A stretch of DNA of 64,000 nucleotides from Escherichia coli (GTDB lineage Bacteria; Pseudomonadota; Gammaproteobacteria; Enterobacterales; Enterobacteriaceae). Positions 28,155-31,100 of the stretch are shown here, one piece after another (the stretch's first letter is position 1; every line of letters starts with the position of its first letter). A program made the position numbers. The stretch lies in assembly GCF_013315695.1 (NCBI RefSeq), contig NZ_CP054353.1. The stretch is one strand, 5' to 3'.

Positions 28155-31100
28155 TAATTACCCGATGTGCCTGATGCGCCCCGCTCATCAGGCCTGGCGC
28201 TCCTGTCATATATTGAACTCCTGGAGTTTATATTTACGCTTCATCCGACACACAAAGCGCACTTTATTAACAAGCTAAAAAGGCGCCGAAGCGCCTTTAG
28301 AAGATAGTCGAATCAGTAAATTACTGGTATTCGCTAATCGGTACGCAGGAGCAGAACAGGTTACGGTCGCCGTAAACATCATCCAGACGTTTCACTGTTG
28401 GCCAGTATTTGTCTGCCACGCCTGCCGGGAATACTGCAACTTCACGGCTGTACGGATGCGCCCACTCGGCGACCAGTTCGCTCTGAATGTGTGGCGCGTT
28501 CACCAGCGGGTTATCTTCCAGCGGCCAGACACCGGCTTTCACCTGGTCGATTTCTGCGCGAATAGCCAGCATCGCGTCGATAAAGCGATCCAGTTCCACT
28601 TTGCTTTCGGATTCGGTCGGTTCAACCATCAGCGTACCCGCCACTGGGAATGACATGGTCGGCGCGTGGAAACCGTAGTCGATCAGACGCTTGGCAATAT
28701 CCAGTTCGCTGATGCCGGTTTCTTCTTTCAGCGGACGAATATCAAGAATACATTCGTGCGCCACGCGACCGTCGCGACCGGTATACAGCACCGGGAAAGC
28801 ATCCTGCAGGCGGCTGGCAATATAGTTGGCGTTAAGAATTGCCACCTGGCTTGCTTTTTTCAGCCCTTCTGCGCCCATCATGCGGATGTACATCCAGCTG
28901 ATTGGCAGAATGGATGCGCTACCGAACGGTGCCGCAGAAACCGCGCCCTGACGGGTTAACATGCCTTCGATTTGCACCACGCTATGACCCGGTACAAACG
29001 GAGCCAGATGCGCTTTCACGCCGATCGGTCCCATACCAGGGCCGCCGCCACCGTGCGGAATGCAGAAAGTTTTATGTAGGTTAAGGTGTGAAACGTCCGC
29101 ACCAATAAAGCCCGGCGAGGTGATGCCAACCTGGGCGTTCATGTTCGCGCCATCAAGGTAAACCTGACCGCCGAACTGATGCACGACTTCACACACTTCA
29201 CGGATCGTTTCTTCATACACGCCGTGGGTAGAAGGATAGGTCACCATGATACAGGAGAGGTTATCGCCCGCCTGTTCCGCTTTCGCGCGCAGATCAGCCA
29301 GATCGATGTTGCCGTTTTTATCACACGCCACAACCACCACCTGCATTCCTGCCATATGCGCGGAAGCCGGGTTAGTTCCGTGCGCAGAAGCCGGGATCAG
29401 GCAGATATCGCGATGCCCTTCGTTGCGGCTTTCATGATAATGACGAATCGCCAGCAGGCCCGCGTATTCGCCCTGTGCGCCGGAGTTCGGCTGCATACAA
29501 ACGGCGTCGTAACCGGTCAGTTTCACCAGCCAGTCAGCCAACTGCGCAATCATCTGCTGATAACCTTCGGCCTGTTCCGGCGGGCAGAACGGGTGCAGTT
29601 CGGCAAATTCCGGCCAGGTGATGGGGATCATCTCGGCGGCGGCGTTCAGTTTCATGGTGCAGGAACCCAGCGGGATCATCGCCTGATTCAGCGCCAGATC
29701 TTTACGCTCCAGCGAGTGCATATAGCGCATCATTTCGGTTTCGCTGTGGTAGCGATTAAACACCGGATGGGTGAGGATTTCGTCGTCGCGCAGCATCGCA
29801 GGCTGGATAGAGCGGCTGTCGTGAGCCACGTCTTTGTCCAGCGTGTCGATGTCCAGGCCGTGGTTATCCCCCAGCAGTACGCTGAAAAGCTGCATCACGT
29901 TTTCGCGCGTGGTGGTTTCATCAAGGGTGATCCCAACCGCGTTCAGGATATCGCTACGCAGGTTGATTTCAGCCGCTTCGGCACGCGCCAGTACGCCCGC
30001 CTTGTCTGCCACTTCCACACACAAAGTGTCGAAATAGTGCGCATGGCGCAGCTTCAGACCTTTTTGTTGCAGGCCCGCCGCCAGGATATCGGTCAGACGG
30101 TGAATGCGGTTAGCGATACGTTTCAGGCCAACCGGACCGTGATAAACGGCATACAGGCTAGCGATGTTTGCCAGCAGTACCTGGGAAGTACAAATGTTGG
30201 AGTTCGCTTTCTCACGGCGAATATGTTGCTCGCGAGTCTGCATTGCCATGCGCAGCGCGGTATTGCCAGCTGCATCTTTCGATACACCGATAATACGGCC
30301 CGGCATTGAGCGTTTGTATTCGTCTTTCGCCGCAAAGAATGCCGCGTGTGGGCCACCGTAGCCCATCGGCACGCCGAAGCGTTGCGCCGAACCAAAAACA
30401 ATATCCGCGCCCTGTTTACCCGGCGCAGTTAACAGCACCAGCGCCATAATATCGGCGGCGACACTGACCACAATTTTGCGTGATTTCAGTTCGCTAATAA
30501 GCGTGGTGTAGTCGTGAATTTCACCAGTAGTGCCGACCTGCTGTAACAGCACGCCGAAGACGTCCTGGTGGTCGAGCACTTTTTGCGCGTCATCGACAAT
30601 CACTTCAAAACCAAAGGTTTCAGCACGAGTACGGACCACATCGAGCGTTTGCGGATGAACGTCAGAAGCAACAAAGAAGCGGTTGGCATTTTTCAGTTTG
30701 CTGACGCGTTTAGCCATCGCCATTGCTTCGGCGGCAGCGGTGGCTTCGTCAAGAAGAGAAGCAGAGGCCATATCCAGCCCGGTTAAATCCAGCGTTACCT
30801 GCTGGAAGTTGAGCAGTGCTTCAAGGCGGCCCTGGGAGACTTCAGGTTGATACGGAGTATACGCGGTATACCAGCCCGGATTTTCCAGCATGTTACGCAG
30901 GATAACCGGCGGTAGCTGCACGGCGGTGTAACCCATGCCGATGTAAGACGTGAAGCGTTTATTGCGACTGGCAATAGCCTTGAGTTCTGCCAGTGCGGCG
31001 TATTCGGTCGCCGGTGCGCCAACCTGCGGTGGTGTCGCAAGCTGAATATCTTTCGGCACAATCTGGCCGGTCAGCGCGTTTAACGATTGTGCACCAACGG

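What the first reader, a model, noticed from the sequence alone, without database searches (positions are those of the whole stretch)
28158..28320. Only 163 bp between bglA and gcvP: expected ygfF-like gene absent
From memory of the K-12 map, a short-chain dehydrogenase gene (ygfF) lies between bglA and gcvP. Here the interval contains only a REP palindrome and the gcvP terminator. Either this lineage lacks the gene or my recalled order is wrong.
Basis: inference. Interest (0 to 1): 0.2.

Follow-up and report, generated by a model that had tools for sequence, protein, structure and literature searches.

The report
ygfF gene missing between bglA and gcvP
This E. coli strain really lacks the small dehydrogenase gene ygfF that K-12 carries between bglA and gcvP, but this is an ordinary variant shared by about 43% of sequenced E. 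coli genomes.

Summary
bglA ends at 28157 and gcvP (minus strand) ends at 28321, so the two genes are 163 bp apart. That gap holds a REP palindrome, a linker, a decayed second REP half and the gcvP terminator hairpin. No ygfF remnant is present.

MG1655 has ygfF (744 bp, a short-chain dehydrogenase) between bglA and gcvP.

Among 5426 complete E. coli genomes:
- 3037 (56%) carry ygfF at this site.
- 2348 (43%) have the same empty junction as the window.
- 17-18 carry a different gene there, a 249-aa Phenol_MetA_deg-family "transporter".

Other enterobacterial genera (Citrobacter, Enterobacter, Kluyvera, Pseudocitrobacter and Superficieibacter, and partly Rahnella and Yersinia) have gcvP followed by ygfF. 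The gene is therefore ancestral and was lost in this lineage.

All empty alleles can be aligned to one another and share one junction, which points to a single old deletion. The first ~20 nt after the bglA stop match the ygfF-bearing alleles and then diverge inside a REP-like hairpin. A deletion between two REPs is the most likely mechanism, but this is inferred, not shown.

Verdict: real, ordinary, and visible in public annotation. Low interest.

The parts
26724..28157 (+). bglA (6-phospho-beta-glucosidase), left border of the interval
   Evidence: NCBIfam PRK15014, 1149 bits. RefSeq CDS in the identical MS 21-1 sequence.
28158..28320 (.). The 163-bp bglA-gcvP spacer. This is the 'empty' allele B, which lacks ygfF.
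   Evidence: No ygfF remnant. The same junction occurs in 2348 of 5426 complete E. coli genomes.
28158..28178 (+). Left flank shared with ygfF-bearing alleles. The first ~20 nt after the bglA stop are TTACCCGATGTGCCTGATGC in the window. L088 has TTAGCTGATGTGCCGGATGC and L085 has TTATCTGATGTGCCGGATGC. Similarity ends inside the hairpin, which is the presumed left deletion breakpoint.
   Evidence: Fixed-position comparison; sequences.
28169..28195 (+). REP palindrome (z-type arms GCCTGATG...CATCAGGC). It forms a hairpin on both strands, 12 nt after the bglA stop.
   Evidence: Pattern match with 0 expected by chance. Hairpin in folds. The 38-mer around it has a median of at least 32 places per E. 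coli genome. It matches REP copies in L088.
28196..28232 (.). Linker of the BIME-like element, including CATATATTGAA. This is the most variable part among the empty alleles.
   Evidence: Alignments A2 and A3. The spacer is 85% identical to the Nissle and O157 spacers, against 95-98% in the flanking segments.
28233..28251 (.). Decayed half of a second, inverted (y-type) REP: TTTACGCTTCATCCGACA. The E. coli C allele has the better-preserved CACGCGGCATCCGACA.
   Evidence: Alignment A3; sequence of L092. Assignment to the y type rests on the recalled REP consensus and is an inference.
28252..28274 (.). Flank next to the terminator that is recognisably shared by the compared alleles (A, B, C and E. 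albertii).
   Evidence: blastn-short match of window 28275-28317 to K-12 at 97.7%.
28273..28298 (-). Intrinsic terminator of the gcvTHP operon: AAAGGCGC-UUCG-GCGCCUUU followed by UUAGC.
   Evidence: MFE and centroid folds. An identical hairpin follows gcvP in Citrobacter sp. FP75 and Kluyvera. The simple terminator scan did not flag it.
28321..31194 (-). gcvP (glycine dehydrogenase, P protein of the glycine cleavage system), right border of the interval
   Evidence: NCBIfam TIGR00461, 1840 bits; RefSeq CDS.

Best explanation
The window carries the common 'empty' allele of the bglA-gcvP interval, in which the ancestral ygfF gene has been deleted.

Shown:
- gcvP followed by ygfF, with bglA convergent, is the arrangement in five other enterobacterial genera. 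Rahnella and Yersinia also have ygfF directly after gcvP.
- That arrangement is kept by 56% of complete E. coli genomes, including K-12.
- 43% of E. coli genomes, including this one, have no ygfF. Their 163-165-bp spacers all align with one another and share one junction.

Inferred:
- One old deletion removed ygfF and its upstream region. The left breakpoint lies inside the REP-like hairpin just downstream of bglA. The right breakpoint lies in the z-type REP of a BIME that sits next to the gcvP terminator. This would be short-homology recombination or slippage between two REP hairpins, across GCC(G/T)GATGC.
- The allele has since segregated in the species.

Functional consequences, also inferred:
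- The cell loses YgfF, a short-chain dehydrogenase of subgroup SDR63C for which glucose 1-dehydrogenase activity has been measured only in vitro.
- bglA and the gcvTHP operon now converge on a spacer that holds one REP hairpin (probably a 3'-end stabiliser or attenuator for bglA) and the conserved gcvP intrinsic terminator.
For: K-12 has ygfF between bglA and gcvP (PMC5100583).

Census of 5426 complete genomes: 3037 carry the ygfF segment, 2348 carry the window-type junction, and 17-18 carry a third gene.

Outgroups with gcvP, then ygfF 60-80 bp downstream on the same strand, then convergent bglA: Citrobacter (two species), Kluyvera and Pseudocitrobacter. Superficieibacter has the same order with bglA about 490 bp beyond ygfF. 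In Enterobacter cloacae ygfF follows gcvP the same way, but bglA lies about 3.6 kb further on. Rahnella and Yersinia also have ygfF after gcvP.

YgfF identities are 74-83% from E. coli to other genera and 72-93% among those genera. BglA identities are 88-97%. This fits vertical descent of a faster-evolving gene.

The empty alleles of the window, Nissle 1917 and O157:H7 align over their whole length with the same left junction.

The first ~20 nt after the bglA stop match the ygfF-bearing alleles L088 and L085 at fixed position (O157 vs L088: 18 of 20). They diverge after GATGC, inside the hairpin.

The REP, linker, decayed REP, flank and terminator on the gcvP side are shared with the C allele and with E. 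albertii (one search gives 70% identity over 330 columns, 0 of 300 shuffles as good).

The REP belongs to a dispersed family.

Independent internal deletions of ygfF, leaving visible remnants, occur in Enterobacter sp. Bisph1 and Mangrovibacter. The gene is therefore lost recurrently.
Against: - No extant allele was found with the exact proposed progenitor structure, that is, ygfF together with the BIME in the orientation seen in the window. The ygfF+BIME alleles found (L088, L093) have the BIME in the opposite orientation and a duplicated terminator hairpin.
- REPs are a repeat family, so similarity between REP arms alone does not prove orthology.
- Phylogroups were not mapped here. It is open whether the E. 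coli ancestor had the empty allele and some lineages regained ygfF by recombination.
- The E. albertii contig ends 324 bp past gcvP.
- The simple terminator scan did not flag the hairpin.
Confidence: 0.85

Rival explanations
1. The reader's recalled gene order is wrong, and bglA and gcvP are normally adjacent in E. coli.
For: None found. The only point in its favour is that 43% of genomes do have them adjacent.
Against: An MG1655 derivative, W3110 and DH1 all have ygfF between the two genes. So do 3037 of 5426 genomes and a published MG1655 table.
Confidence: 0.01
2. The empty state is ancestral for E. coli, and ygfF was inserted or re-imported into the K-12-type lineages by homologous recombination from another Escherichia lineage.
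For: By my own knowledge of strain phylogroups (not tested here), the empty allele is in early-branching groups: Nissle (B2), ST648 (F) and O157:H7 (E). ygfF is in the K-12, O104 and O111 types (A/B1). E. albertii also lacks ygfF next to gcvP. The flanks at this locus are unusually diverged among strains, at 95-98%.
Against: ygfF is at this exact site in five other genera and in a cryptic-clade Escherichia. The left flank of the empty allele derives from a ygfF-bearing allele. So even under this scenario the empty allele began as a deletion of ygfF. K-12 YgfF shows no anomalous similarity to any other genus.
Confidence: 0.2
3. The empty allele arose from the C allele, which carries a transporter gene, and not from a ygfF allele. 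The deletion would have run between the TTTAATT at the bglA stop codon and a TTTAATT about 130 bp upstream of the gcvP terminator.
For: MAFFT aligns the left end of the B allele to TTTAATTC...ACTGAT...TGCCTGA in the C alleles. The 3' end of the window's bglA is 99.2% identical to that of a C-allele strain. B and C share the BIME on the gcvP side.
Against: This alignment needs two extra gaps of 10 and 13 nt. The match to the ygfF-allele left flank is contiguous and starts directly at the stop codon, with 18 of 20 positions identical. The left flank of the C allele (CTCCTGCGTGTTACCCGCC...) is unrelated apart from a 7-mer.
Confidence: 0.1
4. ygfF has moved elsewhere in this genome, or the gap is an assembly artefact.
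For: None.
Against: The K-12 ygfF segment covers at least 80% of its length in only 3037 genomes. In the rest, only the 130-170-bp repeat element of that segment matches, at other sites. The identical junction occurs in hundreds of independent complete assemblies. No YgfF-like coding sequence is in the window.
Confidence: 0.02

Closest known systems
K-12 MG1655 bglA-ygfF-gcvP interval (b2901-b2903)
   Same: The flanking genes are the same and in the same orientation. The gcvP terminator hairpin and about 23-30 nt next to it are also the same (43 nt at 97.7%).
   Different: K-12 has 1066 bp between the genes: a REP-like hairpin, ygfF, the ygfF promoter region and a ~130-bp G-rich repeat (the HPGQ element of PMC5100583). 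The window has 163 bp with a BIME remnant and no gene.
REP/BIME elements of E. coli (Bachellier/Gilson classification; Ton-Hoang et al. 2012, PMC3333891)
   Same: An imperfect palindrome with GCCTGATG/CATCAGGC arms, lying outside genes at the 3' ends of convergent genes. It is dispersed at dozens of copies per genome and is followed by a linker and an inverted second REP.
   Different: The foot reads CCTGG rather than the canonical CCTAC. The second REP is only a decayed half. The subtype (BIME-1, BIME-2 or atypical) could not be assigned.
Empty alleles of Nissle 1917 (B2) and O157:H7
   Same: Same architecture and same junction with bglA. They can be aligned end to end.
   Different: The allele-specific 117-nt spacer is only 84-85% identical, mostly because of differences in the linker, whereas Nissle and O157 are 97.5% identical to each other. 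The window subtype (at least 95% identity) is in about 420 genomes, against about 1600 for the Nissle type.
ygfF internal-deletion remnants in Enterobacter sp. Bisph1 and Mangrovibacter yixingensis
   Same: ygfF has been lost between gcvP and bglA, leaving the two genes close together (170-290 bp).
   Different: Those loci keep recognisable 5' and 3' fragments of ygfF (MAVALVTG..., MKIALVTG...). The E. coli empty allele keeps none, and a REP sits at its junction.

Membership tests
REP (repetitive extragenic palindrome) family | Imperfect palindrome of 20-40 nt able to form a hairpin, with conserved GCC(G/T)GATG ... CATC(A/C)GGC arms | tested here: met
   28169-28195, GCCTGATGCGCCCCGCTCATCAGGCCT. 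The hairpin is present in the MFE and centroid folds on both strands. The pattern match has 0 expected by chance.
REP (repetitive extragenic palindrome) family | High-copy dispersal in the genome | tested here: met
   The 38-mer 28163-28200 finds a median of 32 places per genome. Genomes that lack this allele are included.
REP (repetitive extragenic palindrome) family | [quoted passage not shown] | tested here: met
   It lies 12 nt after the bglA stop, between convergent genes.
REP (repetitive extragenic palindrome) family | Conserved GTAG/CTAC tetranucleotide at the foot (PMC3333891) | tested here: not met
   The window has ...CAGGCCTGG, not ...CAGGCCTAC. The copy is degenerate at this position.
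BIME (pair of inverted REPs with a linker) | Two REPs in inverted orientation separated by a linker (L or S) | tested here: inconclusive
   The second REP is only a decayed half at 28233-28251. It is clearer in the C allele (CACGCGGCATCCGACA) and in E. albertii. The subtype was not assigned.
Rho-independent (intrinsic) terminator | G+C-rich hairpin followed directly by a U run on the transcribed strand | tested here: met
   AAAGGCGC-UUCG-GCGCCUUU then UUAGC on the minus strand, and the hairpin is conserved in Citrobacter and Kluyvera. The simple scan missed it, probably because the stem absorbs three of the Us. Termination activity was not tested.
ygfF / SDR63C short-chain dehydrogenase gene | An ORF encoding a ~247-aa adh_short protein orthologous to K-12 YgfF | tested here: not met
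   tblastn of YgfF against the window gave no hit better than E=3.6, and that hit is elsewhere. K-12 YgfF itself matches PF13561 and PF00106. The gene is absent.

The most novel reading that the evidence does not exclude
The bglA-gcvP spacer may be a long-lived, multi-allelic cassette site in Escherichia. It would hold ygfF, nothing, or a Phenol_MetA_deg-family outer-membrane-type gene, with the alleles exchanged through the REP/BIME elements next to the gcvP terminator. The polymorphism would predate the split of E. coli and E. albertii, because the E. albertii type strain and 17-18 E. coli genomes share the third allele. It would be kept by selection rather than drift.
Probability: 0.2. Interest if true: 0.3.

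Novelty: already known. Interest (0 to 1): 0.1.

Why it matters
It matters little. ygfF is a K-12 'y-gene' with a glucose 1-dehydrogenase activity assigned only in vitro (PMC10645960; judged a correct propagation in PMC12506659). Its absence from about 44% of E. coli genomes, together with independent losses in other genera, shows that it is dispensable and should not be treated as core metabolism.

The locus is a tidy textbook example of REP/BIME-rich intergenic regions acting as hot spots for structural polymorphism. At least four configurations were seen, plus an IS621 insertion. For annotation, the 163-bp gap is not an error and hides no gene.

Tried and rejected
- Searched for ygfF remnants with tblastn and blastn-short and found none. 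The MAFFT alignment of the window gap against the K-12 interval only scattered spurious matches.
- Rfam with permissive thresholds over 27000-29500 gave no hit.
- The promoter and terminator consensus scan found nothing. The terminator was instead established by folding and by conservation.
- I first assumed the whole window was strain MS 21-1. This is wrong: only 15355-64000 is colinear with it.
- An 11-mer (CTAACAAACTG) shared between the K-12 ygfF upstream region and E. albertii looked like evidence for a ygfF-linked progenitor. It is weak on its own, since 8 of 500 shuffles score as well. The E. albertii sequence turned out to be the C-allele type.
It did not return E. fergusonii, E. marmotae or Salmonella.
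- A search of E. coli genomes with the E. albertii spacer found only the terminator region.
- A fuzzy regex for REPs in the window was mostly noise, but it exposed the IS1 copies.
- The small ORFs overlapping the gap (28048-28209 minus strand; 28132-28278 and 28167-28307 plus strand) were dismissed. RefSeq does not annotate them. Indels also shift the Nissle and O157 alleles relative to the window, and the ATG at 28209 is absent from those alleles.

Full report
**Observation**

The sequence shows the bglA stop codon TAA at 28155-28157 and, on the minus strand, the gcvP stop codon at 28321-28323. The interval 28158-28320 is therefore exactly 163 bp. Both flanking ORFs are unambiguous. The 485-aa ORF scores 1149 bits against the BglA subfamily model, and the 957-aa ORF scores 1840 bits against TIGR00461 gcvP. 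The upstream neighbours are yqfB, trhA (yqfA) and ygfZ, as in E. coli. The 1.3 kb around the interval is 100% identical to E. coli strain MS 21-1, where RefSeq annotates bglA and gcvP with nothing between them.

**Is the recalled K-12 order right?**

Yes. In an MG1655 derivative the order is bglA (+), ygfF (-, 744 bp, "SDR family oxidoreductase"), gcvP (-). The bglA-gcvP distance is 1066 bp. W3110 and DH1 derivatives show the same split of the flanks. A published MG1655 table places ygfF directly next to gcvP, with a repeat element between them (PMC5100583).

**What is in the gap**

Homology between the window and K-12 stops right after the bglA stop codon. It resumes at window 28275, about 45 nt before the gcvP stop (43 nt at 97.7%). 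The intervening ~117 nt have no counterpart in the K-12 interval. They contain no ygfF remnant at either the DNA or the protein level and no Rfam family. Reading from bglA, the gap contains:
- About 11 nt of flank.
- A REP palindrome, GCCTGATGCGCCCCGCTCATCAGGCCT, at 28169-28195. It forms a hairpin in both strand folds. The 38-mer around it occurs at a median of at least 32 places per E. coli genome, so it belongs to a dispersed repeat family.
- A ~37-nt linker.
- A decayed half of a second, inverted REP, at 28233-28251.
- A ~23-nt flank shared by the compared alleles.
- The hairpin AAAGGCGC-UUCG-GCGCCUUU followed by UUAGC on the gcvP strand, at 28273-28298. The identical hairpin follows gcvP in Citrobacter sp. 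FP75 and Kluyvera. I read it as the intrinsic terminator of gcvTHP, although the simple consensus scan did not flag it.

**How common is this?**

Among 5426 complete E. coli genomes, counts are as follows:
- The K-12 ygfF segment is present (at least 80% covered) in 3037.
- A 363-bp probe spanning the window's junction is covered in one place in 2348.
- A third allele is present in 17-18. In it, a 249-aa Phenol_MetA_deg-family protein, annotated "transporter", replaces ygfF.
- One further variant seen has ygfF plus an IS621 inserted into a BIME REP.

The empty allele is found in Nissle 1917, O157:H7, O145:H28 and an ST648 strain. ygfF is found in K-12, O104:H21, O111:H21 and similar strains. 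In genomes without the gene, only the repeat element of the K-12 segment matches elsewhere, so ygfF has not simply moved.

**Direction of the change**

A scan of species-representative genomes with the GcvP C-terminus returned several enterobacterial loci. In Citrobacter (two species), Kluyvera and Pseudocitrobacter, ygfF starts 60-80 bp after the gcvP stop on the same strand, and bglA converges on it. Superficieibacter has the same order, with bglA about 490 bp beyond ygfF. In Enterobacter cloacae ygfF follows gcvP the same way, but bglA lies about 3.6 kb further on. Rahnella and Yersinia also have ygfF after gcvP. A cryptic-clade Escherichia genome has gcvP, ygfF and bglA too.

YgfF identities are 74-83% from E. 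coli to other genera and 72-93% among those genera. BglA identities are 88-97%. This fits a vertically inherited, faster-evolving gene. ygfF is therefore ancestral at this site, and its absence is derived.

Loss is recurrent. Enterobacter sp. Bisph1 and Mangrovibacter carry internally deleted ygfF remnants between gcvP and bglA.

**One event or many in E. coli?**

The empty alleles of the window, Nissle 1917 and O157:H7 align over their whole length and share the same junction with bglA. This argues for one deletion.

They are nevertheless diverged. The window's spacer is 84-85% identical to the other two, which are 97.5% identical to each other. The flanking 3' gene ends are 95-98% identical. 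The window subtype (at least 95% identity) is in roughly 420 genomes, and the Nissle type in about 1600.

**Mechanism (inferred)**

At fixed position after the bglA stop, the sequences are:
- Empty alleles: TTA(C/G)CCGATGTGCCTGATG...
- ygfF-bearing alleles of the cryptic clade (L088) and of E. coli 23CRST032 (L085): TTAGCTGATGTGCCGGATGC and TTATCTGATGTGCCGGATGC.

O157 and L088 are identical at 18 of 20 positions. The sequences then diverge inside the hairpin. The left flank of the third (C) allele is unrelated.

On the gcvP side, the REP, linker, decayed REP, flank and terminator of the empty allele are shared with the C allele. They are also shared with the E. albertii type strain. Its 324 bp downstream of gcvP align end to end with the E. 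coli C allele, at 70% identity with 0 of 300 shuffles as good.

The simplest reading is a progenitor ordered bglA, REP-like hairpin, ygfF, BIME, terminator, gcvP. In it, short-homology recombination or slippage between the two REP left arms, GCC(G/T)GATGC, removed ygfF. I give this specific mechanism about 0.4.

The exact progenitor was not found. The ygfF+BIME alleles that I did find (L088, L093) have the BIME in the other orientation and a duplicated terminator hairpin. A rival origin from the C allele, through a TTTAATT microhomology, needs extra gaps. Whether some E. coli lineages regained ygfF by recombination cannot be decided without a phylogeny.

**Function**

YgfF is a short-chain dehydrogenase (PF13561/PF00106). 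It had glucose 1-dehydrogenase activity in vitro (PMC10645960), and a later reanalysis places it in the SDR63C subgroup (PMC12506659). Its absence from about 44% of genomes shows that it is dispensable.

In the empty allele, bglA and gcvTHP converge on a spacer with one REP hairpin and one intrinsic terminator. REPs have been described as context-dependent terminators and mRNA stabilisers, and REP locations vary between strains (bioRxiv 10.64898/2026.03.23.713779; PMC3333891). No expression data were available here.

**Verdict**

This is an ordinary, very common presence/absence polymorphism at a REP/BIME-rich intergenic hot spot, and it is visible in public annotation. Interest is low. The only mildly interesting aspect is the multi-allelic nature of the site (ygfF, empty, or the transporter gene) and its possible age.

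Noticed in passing
window 6658-15355: Two inverted IS1 copies bound a rearranged segment holding xdhC, xdhB, xdhA, actS, tRNA-Gly and a GH15 gene. 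A diagnostic 31-mer marks the copies at 7203 (+) and 14779 (-). To the left is an ETT2 type III secretion remnant. To the right is a 5'-truncated uacT, then yqfG, idi and lysS. About 25 kb present in MS 21-1 (ygfK, ssnA, ygfM, xdhD, xanQ, guaD, ghxQ, ygfS, ygfT) is missing. The segment is 100% identical to E. coli MSB1_4I over 6658-15400.
   Followed up: partly
window 53962-54729: A third IS1 copy of about 768 bp is absent from MS 21-1. By MS 21-1 coordinates (L086, about 10062-10072) it interrupts argO, the arginine exporter gene.
   Followed up: partly
window ~16798-16809 (lysS-idi spacer): MS 21-1 has an IS4 insertion here that the window lacks. The window therefore comes from a related but different strain.
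   Followed up: partly
window 41516-41641 and 57169-57293: A 126-bp repeat is present twice, at about 96% identity. One copy is in the pgk-fbaA spacer and the other in the LysR-rpiA spacer. The length suggests ERIC/IRU, but this was not checked.
   Followed up: no
window ~41650-44950 and ~59960-63040 (coordinates derived from the MS 21-1 annotation): Two gene clusters that I do not recall in K-12. One lies between argP and rpiA: ferredoxin reductase, DUF1471, FMN azoreductase and a LysR regulator. The other lies next to epd: an ECF transporter (two ATPases, T and S components) plus a PPC-domain protein.
   Followed up: no
L092 2187-3581 (E. coli strain B1, calf; NZ_CP157955.1): A third allele of the bglA-gcvP interval. 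A 249-aa Phenol_MetA_deg-family gene, annotated 'transporter', with an AT-rich ~600-bp upstream region, replaces ygfF. It occurs in 17-18 of 5426 genomes. The E. albertii type strain has the homologous upstream sequence next to gcvP.
   Followed up: partly
L093 2030-3542 (E. coli 2017-02-2CC): IS621 (IS110 family) is inserted in the z REP of a BIME between ygfF and gcvP, directly after GTAG. This allele and the cryptic-clade L088 carry a second copy of the gcvP terminator hairpin next to the ygfF start. L088 has the whole BIME-plus-hairpin unit duplicated in tandem.
   Followed up: partly
L005 6650-6860 and L017 6660-6720: Enterobacter sp. Bisph1 and Mangrovibacter yixingensis keep in-place remnants of ygfF: the start codon and N-terminal MA(V/I)ALVTG, joined to C-terminal codons. 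These are independent internal deletions of the same gene.
   Followed up: partly
L001 2937-3050 (K-12 ygfF-gcvP spacer): A ~130-bp G-rich palindromic repeat (GGGGTGAGGG...CCCTCACCCC) with a median of 7 places per genome. It is listed as a hairpin-G-quadruplex (HPGQ) element in PMC5100583. It occupies the position where the empty and C alleles have a BIME.
   Followed up: partly
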